Assembly: GCA_964291215.2 (NCBI GenBank)
Contig: OZ219791.1
Coordinates: 704,001 to 768,000, forward strand
DNA from: Alphaproteobacteria bacterium
GTDB taxonomy: Bacteria; Pseudomonadota; Alphaproteobacteria; MPNO01; UBA830
Length of the DNA stretch: 64,000 bases
Direction: 5' to 3'
Shown: piece by piece, positions 32,254-50,660 of the stretch
Layout: every line of letters starts with the position of its first letter
How positions within the stretch are numbered: the stretch's first letter is position 1
The notes under the pieces: generated by a model
What the model was told of the DNA's origin: nothing
Seen by the model: the letters and a program-made list of their open reading frames with translations, nothing else
The model's database searches: none
Position numbers and translations under genes: made by a program

Positions 32254-33573
32254 GTGCGCCAGGCAAACTGGTGGAATGTGGCCGGGTGCAAGTCCCGAGA
32301 GAGGCTAACCACCACTTTCTCCGTGAACCATGCGTCGTGAGGCGAAGCGTTGGGGAGCGGCAGGCCAGGCTATTGAGCCACGAGATGCTTTGAAACCGGA
32401 GTGCCGAGGTCGTGGCCGAAGGCAACGAGCCGCGTTGGTGAGGGGGGCTCCGCGGGGTCCGAGAACCATGGCCGAAGCAGGGACCTGGGAGGTCTTGCCC
32501 CTCTGTCGTGGAGGGGCCGCAGAGGAAATTCCGTAAGCCGATGATGAACGAGAAGTCAGATTCGGCCATAGTACCGCTGAAGGCGGCGAACAAGGGCTCT
32601 CCGGAGCCTGCGGAGTTGCTGGAGGGAAGGGCAATGCGGTTGGCCCGCGCCGCGCGCAGAAGCGGGGGTCACAGGCGGCAGGTAGCGAAGAGGAACCCGG
32701 AAGAGCGTCTTTACTCCACCACGTGATGTTCTGCGTTCCATTCCTTGAGGAAGGATGCGGCGGCGGGGCGTTGTGTGGCAAACGTACGGGGTGGAACTGC
32801 CTGCACGCCCGTGTGCACAGGGGCGGGCGCCTCCAGGGTCTACATTCCCAAGGAGGGGCAACTTGCCTCGGACAAGATTCTTCAGCGGGCGGTGTGATTC
32901 TGGTGCCGCGAAACGGAGTTCCTCGGTTCCGGCCGGGGCGCATCATGCGCCGTCACGGTGGAACGGCGGAAGGTCAACTGGATCGTTGACGCCCCTTCGA
33001 CAACCGCGACCATCTGGTTGCGATGCTCGGGAAACGGATCGGGGGGTCTGATCATCAAGTGACGCCGGCGTCATGGAAGGGACCGACTGGCAAGGGAACA
33101 CCGCAAGGGGCGGCGCCCTGCCTTGCGAACCTGCACTACGTGCGACTGGTTCCAGAACCACTGGCGCAAGCGGGACACGATCATTATGCGGACGACTTCG
33201 TGTGCGGCTTTCAGCATCTGGGCGGCGCTGGGACCTTGGGGAGAGACTGGCCCACTTGAACTGCACCCGGAAAATCATCGAGTTCGGTCGGTTTGCCAGA
33301 GCGAACCGCCGGAAGCGTGGGCAAAACGTTCGACTTCCTCGGCATGACGCACTTCTGCGAACAGACGAGGAAAGGCAGGTTCAGGGTCGGTCGCAAACGG
33401 GCACCCTGCGGCGGATCAAGGAGGCCTTGCGCAAGCGGTGGCACGACAACCGGCACGAAACGGCCAAGTGGTGAGTTATCAACGGCTGCTACTACGCCGT
33501 TCCAGGAAGCAGCCTGCAGAAGTTCATACACCAATGCAAACAGCTGCGTGCCCTTCGGCGACGCTCCCAAAAG

Positions 33574-35117
33574 GTAACTGCTCACCCCCTGGTTCCGGCT
33601 TGATGTCGGGGTAGAGCAACGAACGGGTTTTCGTGGAGATTTGACACTGTAGGCCGATTCGTTTAGTGGTGGTAATCGAGAACGACGGGGACCGCCAGTG
33701 AGCTACTTTGGATCGAAGGCGACGAGCGGGCTGTGCCAGCTGCTTCCGGGGCTCCAGCCTCCGCATGATCTGTATGTGGAAACGCACCTCGGAAGCGGCG
33801 CGCTGATGAAGCGCAAGGCGGAGTACCGGAAGATGCCGCCGGGTGAGCGCCAGGCAATGCTCGCAACGATCATGACCGTCGAGGCCGGGTGATGGCGACG
33901 GGCGGCGCGCGAGGAGTTCGAAGCGGCCAAGACCGCGGCGCTGCCGGCAAGGTGCCGAAAGAGGCCGTGATCCGCGTCTTCGTCATCCTGCTCGACATCC
34001 TCATCGTCGTCCTTCTGGAGAAGACTACACGCAAAACGAGCCGGAACTCCGGTCTGCCGCCGTCACAGACGGACAAGAGCGCGAGGCATGCCGGGAGCAA
34101 CGGCAAGGGCCCGAAGCCGAACCGGCAGATGGGCGACAACCTGCGCAAGACCATCGTCGAGGAGACGGTCGCGGCCTGCGACGCCTGCGGCGCCGACGGC
34201 CCCGTCGATCGGGAGCGCCGCACGACATCGTGTTCGAGGTCGTGCTGCGTCGACGCCGAGGAATGCCCGAAGTGCAAGGCCCGGTTCCCCGACAACATCC
34301 CGTGCAGTACGGCATCCAAGCCCTCGTCCCTGCTGGTCGCCCAGATGCTGTCCCTGCGCCGTCGCGCTCGTGCAGGCGATCTCCGGCATCAAGCTCTCCG
34401 AGGCCTCGGCCATGCTTTCACGATGCGCCATGGGAGGAGGCCGCCGTGGCGCACCTCCTGCAACGCCCGATGTCGACGATTTCGGATCAACGGCAAGTGG
34501 CTCTATGTCGTCGGGACGTGCAAGTTCCCGCACCGCAAGCGCGGGCAAGAGATCGGCCCGTGCTACAAGGGCGTCCTGGGCCTCGTACATGGCAGTGTAG
34601 CCACCAGTTGTGCGGCAGCCACCTGCTGCGCGAACTGACCTTTGTCGTCGAGGCTACCGCGCGACTGATGAAGAGCCTGCTCCGCGAGGTCTGCCACAAG
34701 ATCAACAAGAGCGCATCGAAGACCCTGAACGACGCCGGGCGCAAGCGCTACCGCACCATCAGGGCGCCAGGGAACTGCCCGACATTCCGACGAAAGGAAA
34801 ACGTGGAAGCAAGTCCGACGCGCACAACCTGCACGAACGTCTCGTGAAACACGAAAACCTGCGCTTCACAGACGACCCTGATGTCAGCTTCACCAACAAT
34901 GCCGGAGAACAGAAGATCAGGATGGCAAAGGTCAAGGTGTCCGGATGCTTCCGCTCCACGCAAAAGCATGGTGCCGGGGCTCAAGCTACCCCACCTCCAT
35001 GGCCGCACTCGGCTACAACCCACTCGTCGCCACCCAGATCGCCCTCGACGGAAAAGCCGCAGACATCATCAACGAGCACCACGACCAATCAGAACCCAAC
35101 TAGGGGTGAGTAGATAC
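33574..35117 (+). mobile_element. IS66-family element B, inner copy
   Basis: Ends GTAACTGCTCACCCC and GGGGTGAGTAGATAC; 8-bp TSD CCCAAAAG at 33566-33573 and 35118-35125; motifs CGSHLLREL, FTNNAGEQ and KVSGCFRS. Confidence 0.9.
33698..33892 (+). pseudogene. Dam/D12-class DNA adenine methyltransferase remnant carried in IS66-B (second remnant at ~36269..36422, minus strand)
   Basis: SYFGSKA..PPHDLYVETHLGSGALM resembles the YxGxK..YxEPFxGxG N-terminus of D12 MTases; the catalytic DPPY region is absent. Confidence 0.6.
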
Positions 35118-36879
35118 CCCAAAAGGACTTCACCGGGGACACAGACAACCTCACCGCTGCCCACTGAGCCAGCATCCGTGGCCAAACCAGCGCCTTGTCG
35201 TCAGGGGAGGAGCGAACAGCGCACGTCCGGTTCTGTGCGGGGGGACCGGGGTAACCCGGTTCCCTACCGCGATGGTTGTCTATGAAGCGCAGGTTTTCGT
35301 GTTTCACGAGACGTTCGTGCAGGTTGTGCGCGTCGGACTTGCGTCCACGTTTTCCTTTCGTCGGGATGTCGGGCAGTTCCCTGGCGCCCTGATGGTGCGG
35401 TAGCGCTTGTGCACGGCCCGGCGTCGTTCAGGGTCTTGGATGCGCTCTTGTTGATCTTGTGGCAGACTTCGCGGAGCAGGCTCTTCATCAGTCGCGCGGT
35501 AGCCTCGACGACAAAGGTCAGTTCGCGCAGCAGGTGGCTACCGCACAGCTGGTGGCTACACTGGCCCATGTACGAGGCCCAGGACGCCCTTGTAGCACGG
35601 GATGATGCCGATCTCTTGCCTCCCGGCCGCGCTTGCGGTGCGGGAACTTGCACGTCAGGGTCCCACGACATGGAGCCACTTGCTATTGATCCGAAATCGT
35701 CGACATCGGGCGTTGCAGGAGGTGCGCCACGGTGGCCTCCTCCCATGACGCATCGTGAAAGCATAGCCGAGGCCTCGGAGAGCTTGATGCCGGAGATCGC
35801 CTGCACGAGCGGCACGGCGCAGAGACAGCATCTGGGCGACCAGCAGGGACGAGGGCCTGGATGCCGTACTGCACGGGATGTTGTCGGGGAACCGGCCTTT
35901 GCACTTCGGGCATTCCTCGGCGTCGACGCGGCACGACCTCGAACACGATGTCGTGCGGCGCTCCCGATCGACGCCGTCGATGTCGGCGCCGCAGGCGTCG
36001 CAGGCCGCGACCGTCTCCTCGACGATGGTCTTGCGCAGGTTGTCGCCCATCTGCTGGTTCGGCTTCGGGCCGTTGCTCCCGGCACGCTCTTGTCCGTCTG
36101 TGACGGCGGCAGACCGGAGTTCCGGCTCGTGCGTGGTCTTCTCCAGAAGGACGACGATGAGGATGTCGAGCAGGATGACGAAGATGCGGATCACGGCCTC
36201 TTTCGGCACCTTGCCGGCAGCGCCGCGGTCTTGGCCGCTTCGAACTCCTCGCGCGCCGCCCGTCGCCATCACCCGGCCTCGACGGTCATGATCGTCGCGA
36301 GCATCGCCAGGCGCTCGCCCGGCGGCATCTTCCGGTACTCCGCCGCCCGGCCTTGCGCTTCATCAGCGCGCCGCCTCCGATGGCACAGCCCGCTCGTCGC
36401 CTTCGATCCAAAGTAGCTCACTGCCGGTCCCCGTCGTTCTCGATAACCACCACTAAACGAATCGGCCTGCAGTGTCAAATCTCCACGAAAACCCGTTCGT
36501 TGCTCTACCCCGACATCAAGCCGGAACCAAGGGGTGAGCAGTTACGAGATTTTTTTGCAATTTTCGCTGACGTTCTTGCACGGAAGTTGTCATGGTGCGG
36601 GGATGTCGGTTCGCAAGAACATCGCTTCCTGTCCGATTCACGTGGCAGCTCCGGAAGGGTCTGTCCGTGCATCCATGTTGCTTGGCAAGGTTTTTGCGGG
36701 TGTCCGCGGTGATGTTTTCTGTGGTTGTCCACAAGCGGTGTGGGGTTCCGCCTTGCCCTGCGAGCGAGGCGACATGAAGCTTGTGCTCCCGGCGGCGGGT
36801 TGCCGTCCATTGGTCACGTGACCGGTGAGCGCGGCTACCTTGCCGTCCAGCGTCCCCGGGCATGGTAACGTGACAGTCC

Positions 36880-37142
36880 GGGTTCCAGGTGTCCCGTCCA
36901 CAAGGCGGTTCGATCTCCTCGATGTCGGCCTCGACGATGATCTGCAGACATTCTCCCCAAGCCGTGTCGTAGAGGGAGACTGTTGAGACAGTCCCGATAG
37001 TGCTCCTGCACCGCACCGAGCCACCGCATCGCACCAGCGTTGCGCACGGGAATGACGGTCGCAGGGCTTTCGGTGGTGGGAGATGAGGGGCCTTGCGGCG
37101 TTCCCGATCGCGGCGCTGCTTCTCGGCAGGGGTGAGGGCCAT
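36880..37142 (-). pseudogene. small hypothetical protein remnant
   Basis: MALTPAEKQRRDRERRK..LQIIVEADIEEIEPPCGRD with an apparent internal frameshift; function unknown. Confidence 0.4.
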
Positions 37143-37163
37143 GAGGGTGTCTCCTTCGCTCAC

Positions 37164-38145
37164 TCACCGTGCCGGTGCTTCAGGCGCCCAGCAACGCTGC
37201 TGTCGCAGCAAGGTGTTCGCCAGCACGTTGCGCATCACGGCGACGATCGCAACCTTGTGGGCCTTGCCGGCGGTCTTGAGGCGCTCGAACACCAGGTCCG
37301 CGTTGAAGCGTGCCGCCGAGGTTGCGGCCATGAACAGGAGATCACGTGGCCTTCGGCGCCCGCCACGGATGTGCCGAGCACCGTGGTGCTGGCCGCTGTC
37401 GTTGGCCATCGGCGCCACCTCGATCAAGGCTGCCGCCTGCCGACGCTGCCGAGTTCGGGCATCCAGCAAAGAAGGGCTGCGGCGGTCACCGGACCGAGGT
37501 CAGGATGGCGTAGCTCTGCTCGGGATCACCGGCGATCACCGCTTTGATCGCCGCGCCGGCGGTCATCGAGATCGGCCGCCGAGGCCCTTGTGACGGTCTC
37601 GCCATCCACCTCATCTGCCACGCGTCGACAAGCGCGGCACCAGGAGATCCTCCAGGCTCTTGAGGAAGGCGGAGCCACAGGCTCAAGATCGCCCAGCCGA
37701 TCTTGGCGTCGACGCGGTTGGCGCCTCGGCGAAGCGCCCGCAACGGGTTGACGAGAATAACCTCGAAGCCCCGGTCATGAAGACACTGGTGAACCTTGCG
37801 GTGATAGCGGCCTGTCGCCCACCACCCGGCTCACCCCGAGGCCGCGAAGCCACCTGCTCAGCGCCCGCCAGCTCGTGGCGTCGTTCGCAAAACAATGCGC
37901 CAGATGTCCAGACTGGCCTTGCTGACCCCTGCTACTACCTTGATCATCGTCCCTCTTGCTCTTCGCCTTACGATGATACGGGTTCAAACCCAAGCATCCA
38001 TTCAGGACGCGAGGGACGTCAAGGGAAGTTGGCCGACCAAACTCGGACGCGGCTCTGTCAAGGTCGAAACGGCAACCTCCGCGGAGATCGTTTGATCCCC
38101 GCTCCCCTGTGCGTGTTCGTTCAGGGGAGCGGAATCTCTCTGTAA
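37164..38145 (-). mobile_element. IS110-family element remnant with a non-coding left end
   Basis: Start at 37947 reads MIKVVAGVSKASLDI; C-terminal VAPMANDSG..RHIRGGR..LFMAATSAARFN..KAHKVAIVAVMR. Confidence 0.78.
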
Positions 38146-38236
38146 CCATAGACCGGACGCTCTCCCACAGTCGGAGTTGTCCACATTTTCCCGCCCCCAA
38201 CCGCTGTGGATGATTGCATCATCAAAGGGACAAAAC

Positions 38237-40675
38237 CTAGTGTTATGTCAGCAATGATATGTCGTACATTTGGTGCTAGACTGTCCGTCCATTCGGGATG
38301 GAGGTCGGAGTATGAAACGCTACGTGGTGACCCTGGACTAGTAGTCTGACATTATTGTATTAATGGATATAGAGACTTCAGTTTCGTCCGGGTATCCTTC
38401 GTCGTGAAACGCCAGTCGACAGTGACATCGGCCGCATTGCGGCGCTCGACCCACGCCACGGTCTCCCGCAGCATGGTGTCGCGGTCGGGGATGCGTTGCC
38501 GAAGGCACTGCCGCGACAGCGCACCGATCTCGATTTCGGCCATGTTGAGCCAGCTTCCGTGCTTCGGCGTGTAGCGAAACTCGAACCGCTTTCGTACCCG
38601 CCTCGCCTCCTCGGGCTCGAAGGCTTCATACAGTGACTGTGCGTGTTCAGATTATCCATGACCAGCACGATCTTCCTGTCGGGGAAATGGTCGTTGGCAA
38701 GCTCCCGGATGAAGTGCGCCCAGTCCCGCGGCGGTCGGTGACTTTCACCGTGCGCCAGTTCTCGTTGGGCGCAAAGGCCATGAAGAGGTTGGCCGTACCG
38801 TTGCGCTCATATTCATAGTCGACCACCTCCGGCTGACCGGGGGATGCGGGTTTCCTGCTGCCGGCTGGTTTCGCACACCAGCACCTCGTCCCCGGCAAAC
38901 TCCCGCTGATAAATGTCAAGCACATCCTCCATCGCCGCCACGAACTGTGCGCTCCGGTGCGGTGGAATGCACCAGTACTGCTTCAGCCACGGCTTGATCT
39001 CTTTTTTTTAGCGTCTTCCTGACCGTCTCTTCTGAAATGCGCTCGACAATCTCCATCTCCACCAGACGGCCGGCAAGCAGCTTCAGCGTCCAGCGCGCAC
39101 AGCCCTCGGGCGGGGACGAACAGGCCAGGGCGATCAGCTTCGCCTCCATCGCCCCGTCCAGCCGTTTTGGCCGGCGGTTCACCTGCTCCTTGCGGCTGAG
39201 GGCGGCGTCCAGCCCCTCCAGGACGCAGCGCTTGCGCAAACGCTCAATCGTCGCCGTGCCGATGCCCAGCCCTTGCGCAATGTCGGCATCGACAAGCCGA
39301 GCGCCGTCGCGCCCCTCGTCGGCCAGCATCAGGACCTGTGCCCGGCGCCGACGCCAGGCGGCCCCGGTGCCGTCGACGATCGCCTTCAAATCCTGGCGCT
39401 CCTGCGCCGAAAGGGTCACGCGGTAGAGCTTCCTGCCCCGAGAGTTGGCCATATACGTTGCTCCTGTCATTGCGCCGCTCCCGTTGTCCGGACCTGCACA
39501 TGGGGCTGCGGCTGCCTGCCTGTTCGGTATCTTGCCCGTGTGGATATCGGCACTGTCCGGATTCCAACAGATGCCGACACAGGAATACTACCCACCAAAA
39601 ACCATCAATACAATGCCGGTGGACTACTAGGCGGAACGGAAAGAACTTTCGGAGATCACGACCAAGGGCTCGCATCTGTCGCAAAAGGTAATCAACGCCC
39701 TGCTCAACTGCGACGAGGGCGCGTTCAATGAATGCCAGATGACCGGGAAGGTCATTGCCAAGATTCTGCGCATCAGCATGCGCAAAGTAGACCGGGTGAA
39801 AAAGCGTTTCGTTGAAGAGGGGTTGGGGGCGGCATTGGGTGGCCGGCAAGGACGCCGTCCTACCTACATGCGAAAAGCCGACGGCACCTTCGAGGCGCGC
39901 TTGGTGGCCCTGAGTTGTGGTGAACCGCCCGAGGGTCACGCGCAATGGTCGTTGCGGCTGCTGGCCGACCGCGTTGTCGAGCTTGGTTACACCGTGTCAC
40001 ACGAGACGGTGCGGCGTGTTCTAAAAAAAACTGCCTCAAGCCATGGCAGCGGGTGGGTGATTCCTCCTCAAGGGAACGCCGACTTCGCCGCAGCGAAGGT
40101 GCTCGATGTCTATCGCCGCCCCGCCGCCTTCCCCGTGGTCTGCATGGACGAAACGCCCCGACCGGCGAGACACGGCAACCGATCGCCATGGCGCCGGGAC
40201 GGCCAGCGCGTAACGACTACGAGTATCGACGTTGCGGCACCTGCAACGTCTTCACGGAACCCCTGGCCGGCAAGCGCATGACCAAGGTAACCGAGCGCAA
40301 GATCGACTGGGCGCAGTTCCTGGCCGACATCGCCGAGCGCTACCAGGATGCTACCACCATCACCCTGGTGATGGACAATCTCAACACTCCCCGGCGCCCT
40401 CTACGAGGCCTACCCGCCGGACGAGGCCTTGTGGGACCGCTTCGAGTTCGTCTACACCCCCAAGCACGGCAGTTGGCTGAACGTGGTCGAACTCAACGTC
40501 ATGATCCGCCAGTGCCTGAACCGCCGCATCGACTTCATCGAGGTGCTACGCCGGGAAGTCGCCGCCTGGCAGGCGACCGCATCCAGGCCAAGGTGGATTG
40601 GCAGTTCACCACCGACGATGCCCGCGTGAAACTCAAACGCCTTTATCCAACATTTGACGAATGACAAGACACTAG
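38237..40675 (+). mobile_element. IS630-family element A, copy 2, interrupted by IS630-B
   Basis: Same ends as copy 1 (CTAGTGTTATGTCAGC..GACAAGACACTAG) and near-identical body from 39631. Confidence 0.88.
38338..39630 (-). mobile_element. IS630-family element B
   Basis: Imperfect IRs starting CTAGTAGTC on both ends, CTAG duplicated; ORFs with WTLKLLAG, DYEYERNGTANLF, VMDNLNTH, AEIEIG; A8 frameshift tract near 39005. Confidence 0.88.
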
Positions 40676-40721
40676 TCATATAAGGGTCTCTTGGCACCTC
40701 ATGGTCTGGCCCGGAAGCAGA

Positions 40722-41204
40722 TCAGCTTTGCGTAAGTCGGGTCAATCCGCTCACTATGGTGGACAATAGTAACTTTTGAACGAAAGGTGTCCGAAGTAGA
40801 TATCCAATCACTGCACCGGAGATTACACTCAAACCAATCCCTATCGCCACAGGAGTCAATGGATCCACAAACGATAGGCTATCACTTATAGCGTAGAACC
40901 AAGCAATCGGCATCGCTAAACCGATGAGCACATGCACAGCTCGCACGGTTCGCTTAACAAGAAGAGCTAGTCTGCGAATCCTTTTTTCTGTTTCAGCTAA
41001 GTGCGAGAACAAAACGGTTTGTCCTAATGCGGGCCGCGCCACGAAAACGGTTATGTCGCCGTCCAATTGTATCGTGGACTGAATTGCGATGGAGCCCGGC
41101 GCCTCCGCGGATTCAATGACCAAGCCTCCGCGGCAAAGCAGAGCAGCCAAATCCGCGAAGACCGAACACTCTTTTCGCAGATTCGATTCTATGTCTGTTG
41201 TCAC
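40722..41204 (-). CDS. hypothetical membrane protein, paralog C of a three-gene operon
   Basis: 160 aa; QSTIQLDGDI..SH motif shared with its neighbours, followed by two hydrophobic segments. Confidence 0.75.
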   Translation of the reverse strand: MTTDIESNLRKECSVFADLAALLCRGGLVIESAEAPGSIAIQSTIQLDGDITVFVARPALGQTVLFSHLAETEKRIRRLALLVKRTVRAVHVLIGLAMPIAWFYAISDSLSFVDPLTPVAIGIGLSVISGAVIGYLLRTPFVQKLLLSTIVSGLTRLTQS

Positions 41205-41222
41205 GAGCGTCCTAGTGCACTA

Positions 41223-42002
41223 TTACCGCCGAGCGATCAGCCTCGCGAACGCGCCGGTCATTGATACAAGAGTCTCGGCAATCAGTTTCCACATGCGTGT
41301 TCCTGACACGATGCCTTCACGATGGAAATCGAGAAGGACAGCCATTTCTTTGGGCTCCAATCCACTTTGGATCCGATTGATCACGTCTCCCGACAAGGAC
41401 ACGGTGCTCTGCATAACTACTTCCTCCACTCCAATGTCCCAGATTTTGCGAAGGAGGGACATTTCATCAGGGTGAAGGTTTGGTTGGGGATGGCGCCCGA
41501 GAGTCGTCTCTCGATCAAGCAGTTCTCGACGGTTGCAACCTAGAAAATTGTCATTTGAGTTGCGACGCGAACGAGGTCGCTTTTTCAAATTCCTCAGCAA
41601 CCCACGAACTTGATCAGAATTGCGCCTGATCCTCTCGACGATAACTCGATCACGATCTTTGAGATCCAGATAATCTTCTAGGATACGGTAGGCAGCGCGG
41701 CGGAGACGCTGAAACGTATAATCATCGCATCTAAGGGTGCCCCGCTCCACCCTTTCTTGCTGCCAGTGTTGTACATGTACAATGTCTCCCTCTGGTGGAT
41801 TCTGTTCAACGAACGGTGTAGCAAGCGGGATTTTCAAGTCGACCTGCAGCTTGTCGGTGTAGGTCGCAGCAATATCGAGAATCGCATGTCCAGGCGGTGG
41901 CATCTTACGCGCCGTCATGCTGTGCTTAACGATTGTGTTGATCTCGAGCGTCGTTAGATCTCGGGCGGTCAGTTTCAAGCTCTCCCGGACACTCGTCATC
42001 AC
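41223..42002 (-). CDS. hypothetical protein, paralog B of a three-gene operon
   Basis: 259 aa intact ORF with GAGGG RBS; LTTLEINT and QSTVSLSGDV..FH motifs. Confidence 0.8.
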   Translation of the reverse strand: MMTSVRESLKLTARDLTTLEINTIVKHSMTARKMPPPGHAILDIAATYTDKLQVDLKIPLATPFVEQNPPEGDIVHVQHWQQERVERGTLRCDDYTFQRLRRAAYRILEDYLDLKDRDRVIVERIRRNSDQVRGLLRNLKKRPRSRRNSNDNFLGCNRRELLDRETTLGRHPQPNLHPDEMSLLRKIWDIGVEEVVMQSTVSLSGDVINRIQSGLEPKEMAVLLDFHREGIVSGTRMWKLIAETLVSMTGAFARLIARR

Positions 42003-42048
42003 ACTCGTTTCCCTCGCCTAGCCAACCCCGCCGGGTAGCCAACCGAAG

Positions 42049-42375
42049 CTACCCGATATTGCGCAACTGTTTTACAAGGTCGACGATGACTTCGACGTTG
42101 CCCTTAACGATTGCCTGGCCCTTCTCAACCTGGCTCGCGTGAAATCCCCGGATGGGATGCAGTTCCTCGTCCCTCAGGAAGGCCTCGTTGAACGAGTTGC
42201 TGATATCGCCTTGGACCAAGTCGATCTTCGTCTTGATCTCCTTTGGCTCGTTGCCGATTACCGTAGTGGTGATCTCGAGTGTCATGAGATTGACGGCGGC
42301 TTGCTTCAAGTGATCGAGGATTTCCTGCCATCCTCCACCAGCCGCGGTGCCGCCTACCTCTCCGTCGTTTGCCAT
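42049..42375 (-). CDS. hypothetical protein, paralog A of a three-gene operon
   Basis: 108 aa intact ORF with GAGGG RBS; LMTLEITT and KTKIDLVQGDI..FH motifs. Confidence 0.8.
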   Translation of the reverse strand: MANDGEVGGTAAGGGWQEILDHLKQAAVNLMTLEITTTVIGNEPKEIKTKIDLVQGDISNSFNEAFLRDEELHPIRGFHASQVEKGQAIVKGNVEVIVDLVKQLRNIG

Positions 42376-42578
42376 TCTTCTGCCCTCTTGCTTCGAACAC
42401 GATTATATTGAAACCTAGCGTGATGGTGCCGCTACTACAAGATGTAGCGTGCGTTTCCAGAGTCCACAAAGGATATGGTGGCAGCGACCGGCAGATCAAG
42501 AGGCCAAACGGCTAGATGCCCAGCATGGTCTGGGCCAGCCGACGGCAATCGACGAGAGGGAGAGGGGACGAGCGTTGA

Positions 42579-44330
42579 TCAAAGGTCAAGGGCCTCGACG
42601 GCATTGGCGCCGAACCAACTGTTCACCGTCTGCAGGGCACCAGGGGGCAGTTCTTGAGTGAAGAGGATAGCTAGTCGTTTCTTCGGCCTTGAGCAGGTGA
42701 CGTAGAAGAGGTTACGATTGCGCTCGAAGGCGTCGTGTCTGTCTGGGGGAATGGAGAGGGGATCGGCCGCCAGTTCGAGCATTTGGCCGAAGTTGTATCG
42801 GTTCCAGCCTCTGCCGACGACCACCAGGACATTGTCAAATTCCGCACCCTTGACACCGTGTTTGGTCTCGAACGGGGAGTGCCCCGAGAGATAGCGGCAG
42901 AGTGCAACGATCTCGCGGTATGGCACGGCGCGGAGTTTCTCGAGCTCTTTCAGCGGGCGAGGCATGACCTCTTCAGCGTCCGGATCGAACTCCCGCAATT
43001 CACGCTCGCGCCGCTCCACAGCATCGGGAACGCGGGGGCGGCGCACTGCAAGCAGGTGCTCCAACACATCGCCGACCGTAGCGCGATCTCGCAACTCGAT
43101 CGTTCTGTCCATGGCTTCGGTCCACTTGTGCTTGTCGTCATGAGCACGGATCGCCGGAACGCTGGAGCCGAGCGCTCGAAACATTTCGCCGTATTTCTGT
43201 GAGAGGTAGGCATTACAGGCAGGTTCCAGAGCGTCGGCGAAGTAGGCGATGTGCGGATGCTCCTTCTTGGTGAAGGTATCGTTGAAGGCGAATACCGCGG
43301 GAATGCTGGGATAGCCTTGCCGGCCTGCGAGGACGCTGTGGGTGAGCATCAGGATTTTGGTGGTCTCGGGAGAGAGGTCCCAACCCTCCAAGTCAAGGCG
43401 GTAGAGGACGGTCTGAAGCGCGTTCTCCGCGGTCTCGGCAGGGAGATCGCCGAGCCAATAGCCGCCGCCGCCGGGGCGGCGTTCGCCAGGCCAAGCGTTG
43501 GTGTGAAAGATGCGGACCTCGCCCTCCGCGTCGGGATCGACGACGGACTGGGGTAGTTCGGGCCGCATGCGGTTGAGACAGTCGACGATGGTCGGAACGG
43601 AGCGAAAGTTCGCCTCCTTGCCGATCACGGTGAGGCCCGGATGGTCGATTTTTCCGCAGCCGTTGCCGTAGATCTTCTGCCAGTGGTCACCGAAGAACCC
43701 GAATTGTGGCGAGTTTGCTCGGCCAAGAAAGTGGTGCTTGATGGAGTCAATCCAGCCGTGGTCCGTGTCCTGGTATTCGTCGATCAGGATGATCGGATAC
43801 TTGTCGGCCAGGATGCTCCTGAATTTGGAATTGCCCATGAGCGCGATGGTCAGGATGAGGACATCGTCGTGATGGATGGAGATGCGGGCGTCGTTGATGC
43901 TTCTGTGCCCGAGCTCGTATTCAACTCGGCGTTCCCCGACGCCGCCGACTTCGGCGAGCTTCTCAGGCCAGTGTTCGAGGTCAGGCAGGCGTTCGCGGAG
44001 CTGTCTCTGGAACCCGACGATGAGTGACCAGCAGAAGGCGTGGATGGTGTTGCAATGGATGATCGGGCTGCGGTCGGTGCGGGCCTCGATTTCGTTCTTG
44101 GCAACATTCGTGAAGGTGATGCAGGCGATCCGTTGGTGGCGTTGCGGCAAGGCGTGACGGTAGCGGTCGATAAGGAATTGCAGCGCCCTCACGAGGGTGT
44201 AGGTTTTGCCGGCGCCGGCACCAGCTTCGACGAGGAAGCTCTCCCCGTGTTCGAGGCAGTGATGGACTTGGTCGAGGGCTCTCTGGCTGGCCTCCTCGGC
44301 CGGGTTCATGGGTTGGACGGGTTCAACCAT
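42579..44330 (-). CDS. gajB: UvrD-like helicase, Gabija GajB
   Basis: AGAGAGKT, DEYQD, FGDHWQKIY, TKHGVKGAEF, FYVTCSR; overlaps the OLD nuclease gene. Confidence 0.85.
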   Translation of the reverse strand: MVEPVQPMNPAEEASQRALDQVHHCLEHGESFLVEAGAGAGKTYTLVRALQFLIDRYRHALPQRHQRIACITFTNVAKNEIEARTDRSPIIHCNTIHAFCWSLIVGFQRQLRERLPDLEHWPEKLAEVGGVGERRVEYELGHRSINDARISIHHDDVLILTIALMGNSKFRSILADKYPIILIDEYQDTDHGWIDSIKHHFLGRANSPQFGFFGDHWQKIYGNGCGKIDHPGLTVIGKEANFRSVPTIVDCLNRMRPELPQSVVDPDAEGEVRIFHTNAWPGERRPGGGGYWLGDLPAETAENALQTVLYRLDLEGWDLSPETTKILMLTHSVLAGRQGYPSIPAVFAFNDTFTKKEHPHIAYFADALEPACNAYLSQKYGEMFRALGSSVPAIRAHDDKHKWTEAMDRTIELRDRATVGDVLEHLLAVRRPRVPDAVERRERELREFDPDAEEVMPRPLKELEKLRAVPYREIVALCRYLSGHSPFETKHGVKGAEFDNVLVVVGRGWNRYNFGQMLELAADPLSIPPDRHDAFERNRNLFYVTCSRPKKRLAILFTQELPPGALQTVNSWFGANAVEALDL

Positions 44331-46374
44331 CGTGGGCCACCGCGGCGTCAGGGGCCTCGAGAATGGGGGCAGCTTGGTCGATTACCGCCCCGTCGTCCGC
44401 AATGTCGCCACGCGCGAGCCATCTCAATCCGTTGACGATGTAGCCCGGTGGGGACCAGTCGGTGTTGTCGATCGCGTGTTTGAGCGCGAACTCGGACTTC
44501 TTGATGGTGTTGAGCTGGTGCCACGCACACTGGGCCTGATCGTCCGGCTTGTCACCTTCGATCCCGAACATGGCTGGATTTGCCAGCATGAACGCGTCCT
44601 CAAAAGTGCGGCCGCATGGACCGCCCTCGGCCTCGGGCCGCTGGTAGGCGATGCGCCGGAGGTTCTGGACCTTCGAGGCGTCGTCTTTGGCGAGGAGGGC
44701 TGCGGGTGAACAGTCGCCGCCACCGAACCAGGATTTCAGACAAGCGTCGCTGGTCGCGGTCCTTTGGTGCACCGGGCAGGTCTTGCGATCAGCGGTGACG
44801 GAGTCGAGGTCGGTGATGATGAGGGTCCGCAGTTCCAGAAAGTCGAGAAGAGCGAAGAAGATGTGCGCGTAGGCACCGCCCACTTCCATCGTCGTCACGT
44901 ATTGGCTGGAGAGTTTGGGTTCAGCAGGCTCGGCAGCCTCCAGCTTGTTAATGATTACGGGCAGCAGCAGGCGCTCGCTCGCGCCTTCGATCAGCACGGC
45001 TTTGTCGGCAAAGAAGAGATCGCAGCGCGTCAGGGTCAGATACTGGTGGAGAAATCGCCTGTGCTCTTCGGGCGTATCGTGCAGCCCTTGGCGGAGATCC
45101 TTGGTTCTGGTGTGGCGCACCCCGTCGACAGACGCAGGGATGAAATAGCGGATTGCCTGGAACCCGGCCGCGTTTGCGACGTGGGAAGAATGGGTCGAAA
45201 CGATGAACTGGACCGGCCACGGCAGGGGAGCACCGTCCTGCGTGCTGAGCTGGTGGGCAATCTTTGAGACCTGGCGGATGAACACTTCCTGCATCTGCGG
45301 ATGCAGGTGGGCCTCGGGCTCCTCAATGAAGACGAGGTGGACTCCAGGCGCGGCCGGTTCAGCGCGGAAAGAGCGATAGAAACTGACTAGCTGGAGCAGG
45401 ATGAAGATAAGGTTGCGTATGCCGAGGCCGGTGTACGACTCCGGTAACTGGATGCCGTGATGGCCGGCGTACCTGACCTTGGTGTGGCGTGAGAGCAAGC
45501 GCTCGATGTCGAGTGTCGTTTCGGTTTCGAGCTCGGAGCCATCGAGACCGGGATAGCCGAAGGAGTGCAATGTCGGCATGAGCTTCTGCAGTTCTTCTCT
45601 GAAACCGCCTTGAATCGTGCTTTGGATATCGCGAACGGCATCCTGGAGTGCTTGGGCGATCAGCTGCTCTTGCTCGTCGGCGGTGGGCGACTGCGCGGCG
45701 GTAAAGAGGCCCTCGAGAATCTTGGCGAGGACATCGGTGTCTCTTGAGGTGTCATCGTCGAGGCCACGCTGGGCATTCACGAAACCTGTTTTCAAGAGCG
45801 AGCGGAGCGCGGTTACGGTCATCTGCTTTCGGTTGGCGTCGTCGTTGGGGTCTTCGGCCCATATGCTGGCGGTAAATAGGTCGGGTACGCGCTGGCGGAG
45901 TTCTTGGAAGAAGGCGATGCGATCGCGGTCGGTGAGATTGCCGGCCGGTTGATCGGCGAACAGCGAATCGATGGCGCCATCTCGCAGCTCGTAGCGCGCC
46001 ACGACCATGGTCTCGTTGCAGTCGGGGTCGAGATCGACGATGAAGTCGCTGAGCGCGCCGAGATCAGGTTGGTTGGGGTCGTAGCGGAACAGGAGTCGTA
46101 GCTCGATGCTCGGAATGAGGGTGCGGACCTCATCGTCAGGGCGCCCGGCACTCTTGGCCGTAAGCGCGTCGCAGAAGCGGTCATAGGAGGTGTTGGAGAA
46201 GTCCTCGATCTGGAACCTGGGATTCTGGTCGGCGAGGAACCGGCGAATTGCCTCGGACAGGGATGTCTTGCCGCTGTTGTTGCGCCCAACGATGAGGGTC
46301 GTCGGAGTTTCCAGCACTAGGTCGGCATCTGCTAAGAGGCGAAAGTTCCTGACTGTGACTTTGTGAAGGTGCAT
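44323..46374 (-). CDS. gajA: OLD-family ATP-dependent endonuclease (ABC ATPase + TOPRIM), Gabija GajA
   Basis: Walker A GRNNSGKT, IEEPEAHLHP, STHS, TOPRIM IEGASE and ITDLD. Confidence 0.88.
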   Translation of the reverse strand: MHLHKVTVRNFRLLADADLVLETPTTLIVGRNNSGKTSLSEAIRRFLADQNPRFQIEDFSNTSYDRFCDALTAKSAGRPDDEVRTLIPSIELRLLFRYDPNQPDLGALSDFIVDLDPDCNETMVVARYELRDGAIDSLFADQPAGNLTDRDRIAFFQELRQRVPDLFTASIWAEDPNDDANRKQMTVTALRSLLKTGFVNAQRGLDDDTSRDTDVLAKILEGLFTAAQSPTADEQEQLIAQALQDAVRDIQSTIQGGFREELQKLMPTLHSFGYPGLDGSELETETTLDIERLLSRHTKVRYAGHHGIQLPESYTGLGIRNLIFILLQLVSFYRSFRAEPAAPGVHLVFIEEPEAHLHPQMQEVFIRQVSKIAHQLSTQDGAPLPWPVQFIVSTHSSHVANAAGFQAIRYFIPASVDGVRHTRTKDLRQGLHDTPEEHRRFLHQYLTLTRCDLFFADKAVLIEGASERLLLPVIINKLEAAEPAEPKLSSQYVTTMEVGGAYAHIFFALLDFLELRTLIITDLDSVTADRKTCPVHQRTATSDACLKSWFGGGDCSPAALLAKDDASKVQNLRRIAYQRPEAEGGPCGRTFEDAFMLANPAMFGIEGDKPDDQAQCAWHQLNTIKKSEFALKHAIDNTDWSPPGYIVNGLRWLARGDIADDGAVIDQAAPILEAPDAAVAHDG

Positions 46375-46489: not shown

Positions 46490-47989
46490 TCAGGTGCATA
46501 GCGCAGATTTCGCGCGGCCGAACCTCATCCGGAGTTGCCGGTAGCGATACCTCATGCGAGTAGCCCAGCTGTCTTGCGGTTCATCGGTGAACGGGTAAGT
46601 GGGCCTTCCGTCTTTGCCGAGTCCTAGTCGTAGGTGCGAGAACTCGCAGCTGGCCACACAGCGGTCCGGGTGCTCAAACGGCTCAGTCTCGGCTTCGACG
46701 AAGCGGTGTTCGAATGACCATCGGCCGGCGGTCGAGGTCCCGTCGTGCCACCAGTCTTCGCCGATCGCGTAGCGCACGAGCATGCGCATCTCCTCAGCCG
46801 CCACCAGGTTGCAGAACGCGATGGTGTTCTGGCCCGGTTCCGGGCCGTCGGGGGCATCGTCGTTGATGTAGCGTCCGTGACGCCGGATGCCCATCCGTTC
46901 ATCTCGAGCATCGCCGCTGGTGTACTGGCCGCGGCACCGCAGGCATTGCATGTCGGGGCCGACCAGGTGGACGCGCCATTTGGCAGAGAGCAGACGGTCT
47001 CGTGATTCCACGAGGACCCCGCCGTCGATCAGGGGTAGGCAGTTTGCGTAGGCAACGTGATTGAGAACTTCGCGCGCCTCGGCATTGTCGACGCAGCACA
47101 TGATGAGGTCCGCGTCGGCTGCGAGGCGGTACGCACGCTCGGTGCGGATCGACAACGGAATCGCGCGAACGATCGGGCGGCGCGCGGTGGCAATTCTGCG
47201 AAGGTGGGCCGCGGCCAGAACCGCCTTGGGCAGTCCGAGGCAGTGCCGGTCAGCGTAGATCAGGCGATCGAGGTTCCTGTCCTCGACGAGGTCGGGGTCG
47301 ATCACGGTGATCTGCTCGAACCCGGTGCGTGCGAGGGATTCGAGGACGATCGAACCGACGCTACCCGCTCCGACGACGCAGACGTGGGTGCGAGCCAGGC
47401 GCGCCTGCGCGTCGATGCCCCAGCTGTCCACGGTGCGCACCAGGCTTGGACGGCGGGCGTAGGGCGGATGGGCGCCCGGAGCCAAGTCCGCGCCCGTGCG
47501 GCGCGGCCCGATCCGTCGAACGTCGCTGCAGTGCGCAGGCGCGATGCGGCCAGGCCCGGATTCCTGCCAGAACCGGGCGCTCCAGACGCCGTCGGAGCCC
47601 ATGGTGAGGCCGAGCAGCGGCAAGTCCGTCTCTCGGACGAAGGGCGCGACGATGTTGCGCTCGGTGTCGTCATCCATGCCGCTCAGGGCCTGCCAGCCGG
47701 GACCAGGATGGCTGTGAAGGACGGCAACGCCTGCCTTCGCCTTGAGCGCGCGATCGAGGACGCGGTTGAGATATCCGCCGTGCACGGTGACGTTGCCGTG
47801 CAGATCCCGGTCGCCGTCTTCCGGCAGAACGATGTCGGCGAGGATCCCCGTATAGCGGTTGAGCCCATCGCCGCGGCGCCAGAGCGCAAGACAAGCCTCC
47901 TCCTGCAGCCCACCGCGGCGCAGCCCGCTCAGGAGGTGATCCGCGAGCTGGCGGTGGAGGGCTTCACGCACTATGACGCGATGATTCAA
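46490..47989 (-). CDS. JAB/JAMM-like peptidase domain fused to a ThiF/E1-like adenylyltransferase
   Basis: N-terminal E..HSHPGPGWQALSGMD; C-terminal GAGSVGS, DPDLVEDRNLDRL, CVDN, CLRC; TTG start overlaps the upstream stop. Confidence 0.88.
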   Translation of the reverse strand: MNHRVIVREALHRQLADHLLSGLRRGGLQEEACLALWRRGDGLNRYTGILADIVLPEDGDRDLHGNVTVHGGYLNRVLDRALKAKAGVAVLHSHPGPGWQALSGMDDDTERNIVAPFVRETDLPLLGLTMGSDGVWSARFWQESGPGRIAPAHCSDVRRIGPRRTGADLAPGAHPPYARRPSLVRTVDSWGIDAQARLARTHVCVVGAGSVGSIVLESLARTGFEQITVIDPDLVEDRNLDRLIYADRHCLGLPKAVLAAAHLRRIATARRPIVRAIPLSIRTERAYRLAADADLIMCCVDNAEAREVLNHVAYANCLPLIDGGVLVESRDRLLSAKWRVHLVGPDMQCLRCRGQYTSGDARDERMGIRRHGRYINDDAPDGPEPGQNTIAFCNLVAAEEMRMLVRYAIGEDWWHDGTSTAGRWSFEHRFVEAETEPFEHPDRCVASCEFSHLRLGLGKDGRPTYPFTDEPQDSWATRMRYRYRQLRMRFGRAKSALCT

Positions 47990-48411
47990 CGCGCACTCCA
48001 GATTCTGCGGATGTGCTTGTTCAGGTAGGCTTCCATGTTCTTGCCGTTCGGGGTGTCGATCTGATCCCAGAAGTCGCTCGGCGGAGCGCTAATTGCCATC
48101 CAGTCGAGACCGTCATCGCACTGGAAGATCTGGATGGCGCCCGGGGAGTGAGACCCCTTTACCAGCTCCTCTAGGACGGGGTCGGGGGGCGAGAGGTAAA
48201 GCCAATGGGGTGCAACCTCGGGCCACTCGCCCTCGTTCTGGTGCATCGCGAGTGCCAGGGTCACGGTCTCCCCCGCGCGGCTGCCGTCCTCGATCCGGTA
48301 AGGGAAGCGGACGCCGTCCGCGCCGCCTTGCTGCTCGGGCGCCGCGAACGGGCTCGTGTCATAGCGCAGCGCGGCGAGTTCGGCAGCAATGCGCTTGGAA
48401 TTGTTGCTCAT
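47986..48411 (-). CDS. prokaryotic E2/UBC-like protein
   Basis: 141 aa from MSNNSK; FPYRIEDG, WPEVAPHWLYL (YP..PP-like), W.AIS.P...W; lies between Ubl and E1 with ATGA/TTGA overlaps. Confidence 0.65.
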   Translation of the reverse strand: MSNNSKRIAAELAALRYDTSPFAAPEQQGGADGVRFPYRIEDGSRAGETVTLALAMHQNEGEWPEVAPHWLYLSPPDPVLEELVKGSHSPGAIQIFQCDDGLDWMAISAPPSDFWDQIDTPNGKNMEAYLNKHIRRIWSAR

Positions 48412-48650
48412 GCGAATGGCGCACCCTTCTCCGGAGCGGCCCGAAATACGTTGTACTTGTCGAGGTCGACCACTTGTCCAGAGACGAAGGTGAGGTCGGA
48501 GTCCGGTACTCTCAGCACGTACCCAGTCTTGTCCGGGTCCTCGCCGATGGCCTTGCCGGCGAAGGTGATCTGCAACAGAACGGCAGCATCGACGGCCTGC
48601 TGTTCGGCGAAGAAGGTCTCGCCGTTCACCTTGAATTCGAACTTGTCCAT
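48408..48650 (-). CDS. ubiquitin-like (multi-ubiquitin type beta-grasp) protein
   Basis: 80 aa; FKVNGE, YVL and VVDL..F pattern; GAGG RBS; first gene of the E2/E1 operon. Confidence 0.7.
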   Translation of the reverse strand: MDKFEFKVNGETFFAEQQAVDAAVLLQITFAGKAIGEDPDKTGYVLRVPDSDLTFVSGQVVDLDKYNVFRAAPEKGAPFA

Positions 48651-48739
48651 CTCGTTGTCCTCTGAGCTGAGCGTTGTCCGGCACCGTTGCGCGGTCCACG
48701 CTCAGGGCGATAAGGTCCGGCAGTAGGCACCAACTTGGA

Positions 48740-48775
48740 GTTTACATTACCACGCTATATGTATATCTTGTCAAC
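48740..48775. promoter_or_regulatory. overlapping divergent promoters / candidate XRE operator
   Basis: Plus strand TTTACA-N17-TATCTT; minus strand TTGACA at 48774-48769; the two -35 boxes form the imperfect IR GTTTACA..TGTCAAC. Confidence 0.55.
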
Positions 48776-48802
48776 CACGGGTTAACGAGGGAGGAGGAAC
48801 GC

Positions 48803-49882
48803 ATGTTCGGACAACGACTCCGACTCGCCCGGAAACGGGCAGGTCTATCGATGCGGGAGCTCGCGGACGCGATGAGCCTGAAGGTGACCGCTCAGGCGAT
48901 CAGCAAGTACGAGGCGGGCAAGATGCTGCCCTCCTCGGCCGTGCTTGTCGGTCTCGGGAAGGCTCTCGACGTCTCGCTGGACTTTCTGATGAGCGCGCAA
49001 GTCGAGGCGCTCGAGGCGGTCGAGTTCCGCAAGCATTCCCGCGCGTCGGCCCGCGATCGCGCAAGGGCCGAAGCAGAGGTGATGGACAGCCTAGAGCGCT
49101 ACCTAGCGATCGAACACATCCTCGACATCGAGTCCAGCGTCGAATGGGTGGAGGGGCGCCGCTACGACAGCGTCGCGAGCGAATCCCAGATCGACGAGCG
49201 GGCCGACGAACTGCGCAGGGTCTGGGATCTCGGCCTCGACCCGATCCCCAGCTTGTGCGAGTTGCTCGAAGACAAGGGAATCAAGGTGGTGGAAGCCGAT
49301 CTCCCGGAGAGCATCAACGGGCTCTCGTGTCACGTTCTCCGGGGCGGCGAGATCGTCGCCGAGGCCGTCGTCGTGTCCAGCCGGATCAATGTGGAGCGCA
49401 AGCGCTTCACGCTGGCCCACGAGCTCGCGCACAGGATCATCCGCTCCACCGGCAATCCGGCGATCGACCTCGAACGGGCGATGAACCGCTTCGCCGGTGC
49501 GTTTCTGGTTCCCGGCCAGAGTCTTCGGGACGAAGTCGGCGCTGATCGCCACAGGATCACCCATTACGAGATCGTCTGCCTGAAACAAATCTACGGCGTG
49601 TCGGCCGCGGCCCTGCTGATGCGTCTCGGACAGGTGGGCGTACTGTCCCAAGGCTCTGTACAACATGCCTTCGCGACCTTCGCCCGGTCCTGGCGCAAGT
49701 CGGAGCCGGATCCGATCCGCCCCGACCATGGGTTCGCGGCCTTCGAGAAGCCTCGTCGCTTCAAGCGGCTTGTCTCGCGCGCGGTGGGCGAGGAACTGAT
49801 CTCACCCGTCCGTGCGGCCGCGCTTCTCAACCAGTCGCTCGAATCGGTCGAGCGGCAGATCAGCGGTCCTGCCATCCAGTGA
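48803..49882 (+). CDS. XRE HTH fused to an ImmA/IrrE metallopeptidase
   Basis: RLRLARKRAGLS..AISKYEAG HTH; RFTLAHELAH (HExxH); strong GGAGG RBS. Confidence 0.92.
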   Translation: MFGQRLRLARKRAGLSMRELADAMSLKVTAQAISKYEAGKMLPSSAVLVGLGKALDVSLDFLMSAQVEALEAVEFRKHSRASARDRARAEAEVMDSLERYLAIEHILDIESSVEWVEGRRYDSVASESQIDERADELRRVWDLGLDPIPSLCELLEDKGIKVVEADLPESINGLSCHVLRGGEIVAEAVVVSSRINVERKRFTLAHELAHRIIRSTGNPAIDLERAMNRFAGAFLVPGQSLRDEVGADRHRITHYEIVCLKQIYGVSAAALLMRLGQVGVLSQGSVQHAFATFARSWRKSEPDPIRPDHGFAAFEKPRRFKRLVSRAVGEELISPVRAAALLNQSLESVERQISGPAIQ

Positions 49883-50412
49883 CCTGCGTCATCGTCAACG
49901 ACGCTTCGTGCTTGATCGACCTCCGTAAGGGAGGCCTGCTGGGCGTCGTTTGAGACCTGCCCTATCGGTTGGTGATCCCGTTGCCCGTGCGGGCTTTGGA
50001 AGTGCTCGACCTTTCGGAGGCCGAATGGCAGGCGCTCGACGAGGCCGGCATGATCACGCACGACCTGACTCTGGAGGAGGTCGGTCAGGCGTTCGCGGTG
50101 AAGAGGCGTCATGCGGGACTCTCCGCCAACGACTGCTTCTGTCTGGTCACGGCACGGATCTATCCGGGCATCCTGCTCACGGGCGACGCCCTACTGCGCA
50201 AGGTTGCCGCAGCGAATGGACTGCGGGTGCACGGCGTGCTCTGGGTGGTCGACGAGCTTGAGGCTGCAGCCGTTTGCAGCAGATCGCTTCTGAGTCGGGC
50301 GCTCAAGGCATGGCAGTCGGACGAGTCGGTGTTCCTTCCCCCGCACGAAATCAGCACGCGGCTTGAGTACCTGGCGAAAGCCGGGTCTCGGAGAAGCAGC
50401 GAAAATCGCTGA
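49879..50412 (+). pseudogene. PIN-domain protein with an in-frame TGA at codon 25
   Basis: GTG overlaps the regulator stop; reads VTCVIVNDASCLIDLRKGGLLGVV*DLPYRL..; LSANDC, LLTGDALLR and VHGVLWV are PIN motifs; TGA at 49951-49953. Confidence 0.8.
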
Positions 50413-50660
50413 TGGGGACATGGAAGGCCTGTCGTGGTCTGGGGTTTGATTTGATCCGATTACGGCACGATGACAGACGGCTCTGCTGATCCTGTGGATG
50501 GGGCGAAGATTCTAGGAATTCCGCGGGGTTGCGCGTGTCGCCGCTGCATCGGAACGCGATTCTGACGAAACAAGGGCATGTCGTGGCTTTCGGGACAAGA
50601 TCGCGGCCTGCGGTCCGGCGGCAGGTGAGCGGTGTTGGCCGCCGGCCTGCGATCGGGCCG

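What the first reader, a model, noticed from the sequence alone, without database searches (positions are those of the whole stretch)
40722..42375. Operon of three mutually paralogous unknown genes (one membrane-anchored) directly behind Gabija: candidate new defence system
Seen: three intact, co-oriented, closely spaced ORFs (108, 259, 160 aa; gaps 46 and 18 bp) in DNA that looks more AT-rich than the host, amid otherwise ruined mobile DNA. They share a motif. A: NLMTLEITT..IKTKIDLVQGDISNSF..GFHASQV. B: DLTTLEINT..MQSTVSLSGDVINRI..DFHREGI. C: IQSTIQLDGDITVFV..FSHLAET. B looks like the A domain with a long insertion between the TLEI and GD strands; C keeps the GD..H half and adds two C-terminal hydrophobic helices. 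I cannot assign the motif to any named family. Known: defence genes cluster in islands, and 2-TM proteins are common abortive-infection effectors. Inference: a hetero-oligomer built from one repeated fold and tethered to, or permeabilising, the membrane via C.
Basis: partly seen in the sequence, partly recalled or inferred. Interest (0 to 1): 0.85.

Follow-up and report, generated by a model that had tools for sequence, protein, structure and literature searches.

The report
Widespread three-paralogue membrane-anchored operon
Three unnamed genes behind a Gabija anti-phage system are diverged copies of one protein module, kept in the same order across nine bacterial phyla; they likely build a membrane-anchored complex that is independent of Gabija and possibly protects the cell envelope against phage-tail-like attack, a role that is untested.

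Summary
Three intact, low-GC ORFs (A 108, B 258/259, C 160 aa) are true paralogues: profile-profile probabilities are 87-97%, against at most 34% for decoys. AlphaFold models show A as helix-three strands-helix and B as the same module with a ~155-residue helical insert; C adds hydrophobic helices. GD and His are nearly invariant. No Pfam, NCBIfam, PADLOC or PDB sequence family matches. The only fold lead is a weak YbaB/EbfC-like topology, with no sequence support.

A-B-C is contiguous in 67 of 79 genome loci from nine phyla, and B is fused to C in four Actinoplanes-group genomes. The defence reading is only partly supported. The two closest relatives also sit in defence islands, but only 2 of 65 distant loci have defence neighbours, and Azospirillum keeps the operon between parAB and a ketoacyl reductase.

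Carriers are enriched for the eCIS marker Pvc16: 3 of 3 other carriers versus 5 of 297 non-carriers in one class sample, and 17 of 50 carriers overall. This genome and 23 Azospirillum carriers lack it. Best reading: an undescribed, stand-alone membrane-tethered hetero-oligomer with a likely envelope-protection role. The complex could not be modelled.

The parts
42049..42375 (-). Gene A, 108 aa, acidic (pI 4.9), soluble; predicted helix-beta1-beta2-beta3-helix module with T49, G56-D57 and H79
   Evidence: pLDDT 88.6; G 143, D 144, H 147 of 149
41223..42002 (-). Gene B, 258/259 aa; the same module with a predicted helical insert (about residues 36-190) between beta1 and beta2; the most conserved subunit (R123, Q197, G204, D205, H226, W237 in 82 of 82)
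   Evidence: (pLDDT 93.9, pTM 0.89)
40722..41204 (-). Gene C, 160 aa; GG strand, Q.DGD hairpin and H68, followed by two hydrophobic, probably transmembrane segments (about 89-107 and 119-137)
   Evidence: not folded
42376..42510 (-). Leader conserved in close relatives: putative own promoter (TTG-type hexamer, 17 bp spacer, read by eye) and two NrdR-box-like 16-mers 31 bp apart; a lead only
   Evidence: the sigma-70 scan found no site
42579..44330 (-). GajB (Gabija helicase); neighbour, not part of the operon family
44323..46374 (-). GajA (Gabija ATPase-TOPRIM nuclease); neighbour

Best explanation
A, B and C are three paralogous proteins encoded by a stand-alone, horizontally mobile operon; they likely assemble into one hetero-oligomer that C likely anchors in the inner membrane, and the complex would protect the cell envelope in microbial conflict (phage or phage-tail-like injection) rather than act as part of Gabija. 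Shown: paralogy, conserved order, purifying selection, natural B-C fusion, patchy spread. Predicted: the helix-three strands-helix fold of A and B, B's helical insert, C's membrane helices. Inferred: subunits pair through their three-stranded sheets as YbaB/EbfC protomers do; the invariant GD and His residues sit at the subunit interface (structural or metal-binding); B's insert (invariant R123, RKxW motif) is the working or sensing part. The conflict role is inferred only from genomic company: eCIS-rich genomes, defence islands in the closest clade, and peptidoglycan-binding or hydrolase genes at a few loci.
For: Paralogy: decoys. Models. A-B-C contiguous in 67 of 79 loci. B-C fusion ORFs of 404-443 aa in 4 Actinoplanes/Paractinoplanes loci. 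Hydrophobic segments in 52 of 66 C, 3 of 149 A and 2 of 82 B proteins. Patchy spread: 0 of 40 relatives, 4 of 301 class genomes, 23 of 69 Azospirillum-genus genomes. eCIS marker Pvc16_N in 3 of 3 other carriers versus 5 of 297 non-carriers of the same class sample (Fisher 1e-5, or 5e-5 counting this genome) and in 17 of 50 carrier genomes. The control family GvpA is not enriched: 1 of 53 versus 2 of 301. L013 has the operon 140 bp upstream of a co-oriented Pvc16-sheath-tube cluster, and L066 has an eCIS_core gene about 3.5 kb upstream. Window, L081 (TIR, ThsB_TIR, integrase) and L082 (type III restriction-modification) are defence islands. Peptidoglycan-binding or hydrolase genes lie near L006, L025, L066, L074 and L076.
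Against: No physical interaction was tested. This genome has no Pvc16, tail sheath or T6SS VipB hit. None of 23 Azospirillum carriers has Pvc16, while 7 of 46 non-carriers do, and 33 of 50 carriers lack it (many are incomplete MAGs). The eCIS enrichment is not corrected for phylogeny or genome size and may reflect lifestyle only; one genome (G233 = G473) is in both sets. Most neighbours are housekeeping genes, and only 2 of 65 distant loci have defence neighbours. Long residence at one site in the A. brasilense group is unlike a fast-turnover defence gene. The YbaB resemblance is weak (Z 5.2-6.4, rmsd 5-7 A; profile probability about 1% or less).
Confidence: 0.4

Rival explanations
1. A dedicated abortive-infection anti-phage system: A and B sense infection, and C permeabilises the membrane and kills the cell.
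For: Three of three loci in the closest clade are defence or mobile islands; L074 has a Gabija-like pair about 4.5 kb downstream and L051 has AbiE; patchy spread and low GC; contigs in two other runs (X3, X7) bridge A or ABC to gajB; NrdR-like boxes could couple expression to dNTP depletion (weak).
Against: 2 of 65 distant loci have defence neighbours; no PADLOC hit; no hit in 50,697 phage records or in viral contigs; stable position in Azospirillum; only 23 of 66 C proteins have two hydrophobic segments; no recognisable enzymatic or sensor domain.
Confidence: 0.2
2. A YbaB/EbfC-derived nucleoid-associated complex that tethers DNA (chromosome or chromid) to the membrane through C.
For: Same alpha1-beta1-beta2-beta3-alpha2 topology as YbaB (PMC9610160 passages); YbaB entries recur in both fold searches; adjacent to parAB in Azospirillum; B of this clade is basic (pI 9.7); NrdR-like boxes in the close clade.
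Against: No profile homology to YbaB; family median pI is 4.9 for A and 6.1 for B; this genome and five other carriers keep a canonical YbaB; parAB adjacency is limited to one genus; NrdR-like boxes occur in 1 of 70 distant loci, which is chance level.
Confidence: 0.15
3. A membrane-bound chaperone or assembly scaffold for secreted or membrane proteins, in the way the YbaB-like EspL stabilises ESX-1 substrates; where eCIS is present it would help anchor or release the particles.
For: EspL stabilises EspE, EspF and EspH (PMC6319747, abstract in search listing; its YbaB likeness is recalled, and the listing shows the term 3 times); operon directly upstream of an eCIS cluster in L013; eCIS enrichment.
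Against: No constant client or secretion system: sheath and T6SS are absent here, and Pvc16 is absent from 33 of 50 carriers; no family recurs next to the operon.
Confidence: 0.15
4. A membrane-bound metalloenzyme or metal-handling complex whose site is built from the conserved His and Asp of the three subunits.
For: His is kept in 147 of 149 A, 82 of 82 B and 57 of 66 C proteins; Asp in 144, 82 and 62; B has further invariant polar residues.
Against: No enzyme fold match; no consistent metabolic neighbours; no model coordinates were available to test whether these residues cluster.
Confidence: 0.1

Closest known systems
YbaB/EbfC nucleoid-associated proteins (PF02575; PDB 1pug, 1j8b, 1ybx, 3f42) and the YbaB-like EspL
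   Same: Order of elements helix-three strands-long helix; size of A; the most recurrent alpha/beta hits in the fold searches (B vs 1pug Z 6.4, rmsd 6.5, 86 aligned; A vs 1ybx Z 5.6, rmsd 6.6; A vs 3f42 Foldseek probability 0.89, E 0.09).
   Different: No sequence or profile homology; scores lie within the range of unrelated helical hairpins; three paralogues instead of a homodimer; helical insert and membrane anchor; GD/His signature; not in a dnaX-recR context.
Gabija (GajA-GajB)
   Same: Direct neighbour here, on the same strand, 203 bp away; a Gabija-like pair also lies near L074.
   Different: No homology; separate conserved leader; not a Gabija companion in the other loci examined.
Membrane-effector abortive-infection systems (2-TM effectors of CBASS, retron or Thoeris type; recalled)
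   Same: Small operon with one hydrophobic subunit, patchy, found in defence islands in this clade.
   Different: No sensor or signalling enzyme; no PADLOC match; family-wide context is mostly housekeeping.
Tripartite alpha-pore-forming toxins (AhlABC, SmhABC, NheABC; recalled)
   Same: Design analogy only: three paralogous subunits in one operon, one carrying the membrane-inserting segment.
   Different: Much smaller proteins with a different predicted fold; no such entry among the listed fold hits.
Extracellular contractile injection systems (eCIS; PMC8213781)
   Same: Genomic co-occurrence (17 of 50 carriers; the paper reports eCIS in 1.9% of genomes) and adjacency at L013 and L066.
   Different: Not a known core gene; present in genomes without eCIS, including this one.

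Membership tests
YbaB/EbfC | Match to PF02575 or profile homology to YbaB | tested here: not met
   No PF02575 hit for A, B or C, or among the listed families for 149 A and 82 B members; hhalign against 38 YbaB sequences gives 0.7, 0.15 and 1.1%
YbaB/EbfC | alpha1-beta1-beta2-beta3-alpha2 topology | tested here: met
   DSSP on the models against the topology stated in PMC9610160
YbaB/EbfC | Significant 3D superposition | tested here: inconclusive
   Z 5.2-6.4, rmsd 5-7 A, Foldseek E about 0.1
YbaB/EbfC | Tweezer dimer that binds DNA | not testable with these tools
Known anti-phage defence systems | Match to a PADLOC or NCBIfam defence model | tested here: not met
   0 PADLOC families at E<=1 for A, B, C; one non-significant NCBIfam hit at E 0.11
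Known anti-phage defence systems | Family-wide enrichment next to defence genes | tested here: inconclusive
   3 of 3 in the close clade, 2 of 65 distant loci; Pfam only, crude ORF calls, about half of the neighbours unannotated, no background rate
Known anti-phage defence systems | Protection against phage | not testable with these tools
   Needs a phage challenge
Gabija accessory | Consistent linkage to gajAB | tested here: not met
   Besides the window, 1 of 65 distant loci (L074, about 4.5 kb away) and neither close-relative locus
eCIS component | Obligate co-occurrence with eCIS core genes | tested here: not met
   17 of 50 carriers; 0 of 23 Azospirillum carriers; none in this genome
Gas vesicle proteins (GvpA family) | Co-occurrence with or match to PF00741 | tested here: not met
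   1 of 53 carriers has PF00741; no Pfam hit for A, B, C

The most novel reading that the evidence does not exclude
A previously undescribed, cross-phylum protection system against contractile injection machines and phage tails: a membrane-anchored hetero-oligomer of three YbaB-like modules, kept by eCIS producers as self-protection and picked up into defence islands by bacteria of crowded niches such as sponges.
Probability: 0.15. Interest if true: 0.92.

Novelty: categorically new. Interest (0 to 1): 0.62.

Why it matters
This is a compact, self-contained three-gene module with no family name, present in nine phyla and in a genetically tractable strain group (Azospirillum brasilense Sp7 AMK58_RS24010-24020; A. 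argentinense Az39), so its function can be tested directly. If it protects against injection machines or phages, it would be a new kind of envelope-level defence. If it is a YbaB-derived membrane tether or chaperone, it would extend that fold to a hetero-oligomeric membrane machine. Either way it shows that sitting next to Gabija can mislead: the family context is mostly not defensive.

Tried and rejected
Family searches: Pfam, PADLOC and NCBIfam gave no family. PDB sequence searches with three profiles gave a best E of 0.13. ESM Atlas hits were all <=0.82 and uninformative. Foldseek on PDB and BFVD gave nothing at E<=0.001; VIA-align had no Z>=8; a second-look alignment was not run because the machine was busy.

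Distribution: no homologue in phage records or viral contigs; plasmid hits only on 7 Azospirillum megaplasmids. No further copy of the genes in this genome.

Rejected ideas: gas vesicles; T6SS link (1 of 5 genomes); my recalled label DUF2589 for the L054/L059 neighbours (no PF11655 hit, though that search rang nowhere); family-wide NrdR control (1 of 70). The DGD..H-like tail seen by eye in the 525/541-aa proteins of L074 and L076 was not picked up by the profiles. The eCIS_core search of this genome rang in no control and is inconclusive. Sigma-70 and terminator scan: no site.

Reads: no RNA holder listed; run X11 has no cover over ABC, which alone proves nothing.

Literature: six searches. 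Locus tags and accessions of Azospirillum and Crinalium members gave 0 papers; YbaB + anti-phage + defense system gave 0 papers. Supplements were not searched and could list these genes. Four look-ups of earlier findings returned nothing relevant.

Full report
Observation. The three ORFs lie where stated, on the minus strand, 203 bp behind the gajB stop, with gaps of 46 and 18 bp. GajA and GajB are certain. The operon has 52.4% GC in a 64.1% genome, and only 2 of 3720 equal windows are as low; Gabija itself is about 61%. dN/dS against two close relatives is 0.09-0.34, so all three are real genes under purifying selection. No Pfam, PADLOC or NCBIfam family fits, nor does any family recur among 82 B or 149 A members, nor any PDB sequence.

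Paralogy. Pairwise BLAST shows nothing significant, and shallow profiles gave partial signals only. With deep alignments (A 149, B 82, C 66 sequences), hhalign gives A~B 94%, C~B 96.8% and A~C 86.6%. One reversed and 15 shuffled decoys per pair reach at most 34%. C members were chosen by position and by the C profile, not by the B profile. The shared signature is T.I.L.GD.....H: G, D and H are kept in 143, 144 and 147 of 149 A, in 82 of 82 B, and in 62, 62 and 57 of 66 C.

Structure. AlphaFold models are confident (A pLDDT 88.6; B 93.9, pTM 0.89). A is helix 15-29, strands 32-39, 45-52 and 57-62, then helix 70-107. C was not folded; its hydropathy shows two segments, and the family has at least one in 52 of 66 members, against 3 of 149 A and 2 of 82 B. 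No fold search is significant. The recurrent alpha/beta hits are YbaB/EbfC proteins (1pug, 1ybx, 3f42, 1j8b; Z 5.2-6.4), whose published topology is the same (PMC9610160, passages read). Profile comparison with 38 YbaB sequences gives about 1% or less. This is a resemblance, not membership.

Distribution. A scan of the genome collection found 106 relatives of B, of which 79 loci were returned. The record titles cover Pseudomonadota, Acidobacteriota, Myxococcota, Planctomycetota (anammox), Desulfobacterota, Actinomycetota, Bacteroidota, Chloroflexota and Nitrospirota (phylum assignment from my knowledge of the names). A-B-C is contiguous and in order in 67 of 79. Of the other 12, three are cut by contig ends, four Actinoplanes-group loci carry a B-C fusion followed by A and a second B, one has A 1.6 kb away, one has a weak C, two lack a detected A and one lacks C. 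The A profile finds 443 clusters at 50% identity, including cyanobacterial proteins with long acidic tails; whether these have B and C was not tested. The operon is patchy: 0 of 40 relatives, 4 of 301 class genomes and 23 of 69 Azospirillum-genus genomes. It was not found in phage or viral collections.

Defence context, for and against. Dozens of close homologues (mostly 70-90% identity) come from metagenome assemblies, and the runs with a stated habitat that hold this DNA are labelled sponge or coral metagenome. The two close loci I could read, of 9 returned, are islands: L081 with an integrase, TIR and ThsB_TIR genes, and L082 with type III restriction-modification and a FitA-like antitoxin. 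Contigs in runs X3 and X7 bridge the operon to gajB, while a 7.5-kb contig in X11 matches Gabija from 42578 on and has 99 unmatched letters beyond the gajB stop. For distant loci I dropped 14 near-duplicates, leaving 65, and scanned 231 of the 244 nearest predicted neighbours plus 4 extras with Pfam. The 13 left out were four genes of one Azospirillum duplicate locus and nine recognised as housekeeping from clustering. Only L051 (AbiE) and L074 (Gabija-like pair) have defence genes. About half of the neighbours had no family, my ORF calls are crude, and no background rate was measured. No neighbour family recurs beyond generic kinases and transporters. In Azospirillum the operon sits between parAB and a ketoacyl reductase on a megaplasmid, annotated as three hypothetical proteins.

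Own leader. About 130-150 bp upstream of A align among the three close loci, while the DNA further up does not, so the operon likely travels with its own promoter. Two 16-mers 31 bp apart resemble NrdR boxes (consensus recalled; tandem arrangement and nucleotide sensing per PMC12748703 passages). A similar box lies before this genome's ribonucleotide reductase, and 0.4% of random windows score as high. The strict pattern, partly derived from this site, has 28 genome hits, and only 1 of 70 distant loci scores, so this is a clade-limited lead.

An unexpected association. L013 has the operon 140 bp upstream of a co-oriented Pvc16, sheath and tube cluster, and L066 has an eCIS_core gene nearby. 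In the same 301-genome sample, Pvc16_N occurs in 8 genomes, including all 3 other carriers of B (p 1e-5), and in 17 of 50 carrier genomes (50 of the 79 loci were submitted). PMC8213781 (passages read) reports eCIS in 1.9% of genomes. The control family GvpA shows no such enrichment. Against this: this genome has no Pvc16, sheath or VipB; Azospirillum carriers are 0 of 23 against 7 of 46 non-carriers; and kin are not independent. The link is therefore real as a statistic but not obligate, and may reflect a shared lifestyle.

Mechanism. I put about 0.75 on this architecture. For the role I commit to envelope protection in microbial conflict (0.4 overall), because it accounts for both the eCIS company and the recruitment into defence islands. 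Rivals are a classical abortive-infection system (0.2), a DNA-membrane tether (0.15), an EspL-like chaperone (0.15; PMC6319747, abstract in listing only) and a His/Asp metalloenzyme (0.1).

Novelty and verdict. Six literature searches, including locus tags of named members, found no description (supplements not searched), and earlier notes of this scan hold nothing on it. The finding is a real, undescribed, cross-phylum three-paralogue system. 'New defence system tied to Gabija' is not established. Interest 0.62.

Noticed in passing
window 46490-48650 (minus strand): Upstream of gajA: a 499-aa ThiF/E1 protein with an extra N-terminal region (JAB-like by recall; PADLOC E1-E2 hits, E 5e-15), preceded by an 80-aa ubiquitin-like-looking ORF and an intervening small ORF with no Pfam hit; looks like a bacterial ubiquitin-like conjugation operon (label recalled). 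It is on the same X11 contig as Gabija.
   Followed up: partly
window 48674-50412 (plus strand): HTH plus IrrE/ImmA peptidase (PADLOC RmrA-like, E 7e-46) followed by a PIN-like protein: a toxin-antitoxin or regulator pair at the island edge.
   Followed up: partly
window 42376-42510: Two NrdR-box-like sites 31 bp apart upstream of A, at matching positions in L081 and L082; a similar box lies before the genome's ribonucleotide reductase.
   Followed up: partly
L074 2098-6218, L076 446-4715, L070 342-671: A divergent fourth paralogue (A', 109-130 aa; E 1e-7 to 0.03 with the A profile). In two Bacteroidota loci it is co-oriented with a CHAP/peptidoglycan-binding gene and an unannotated 525-541 aa protein ahead of A-B-C.
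   Followed up: partly
L058 4991-6322, L061 6331-7545, L068 6216-7535, L069 6246-7544: B-C fusion genes followed by A and a second B in Actinoplanes/Paractinoplanes; in L058 a transposase-like HTH gene lies between them.
   Followed up: yes
L054 1341-7156 and L059: Co-oriented cluster of five or more mutually related unannotated 150-250 aa genes and a PASTA-like coiled-coil protein directly upstream of the operon in two Roseomonas-like MAGs; no Pfam family for the four members scanned.
   Followed up: partly
P0134, P0162, P0178, P0194, P0207, P0219, P0231: Proteins (cyanobacterial where named) with an N-terminal A module and 200-850 residue acidic, low-complexity tails; their partners and context are unknown.
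   Followed up: partly
L081 5078-7229: DUF1883-TIR, ThsB_TIR and a 208-aa membrane protein with a channel-pore-like motif (by eye; no Pfam hit): a Thoeris-like operon with an unusual effector.
   Followed up: partly
window 29000-40700 and 50600-58000: Many degraded insertion-sequence and group II intron reverse-transcriptase-like copies with frameshifts around the island (by inspection of ORFs).
   Followed up: no
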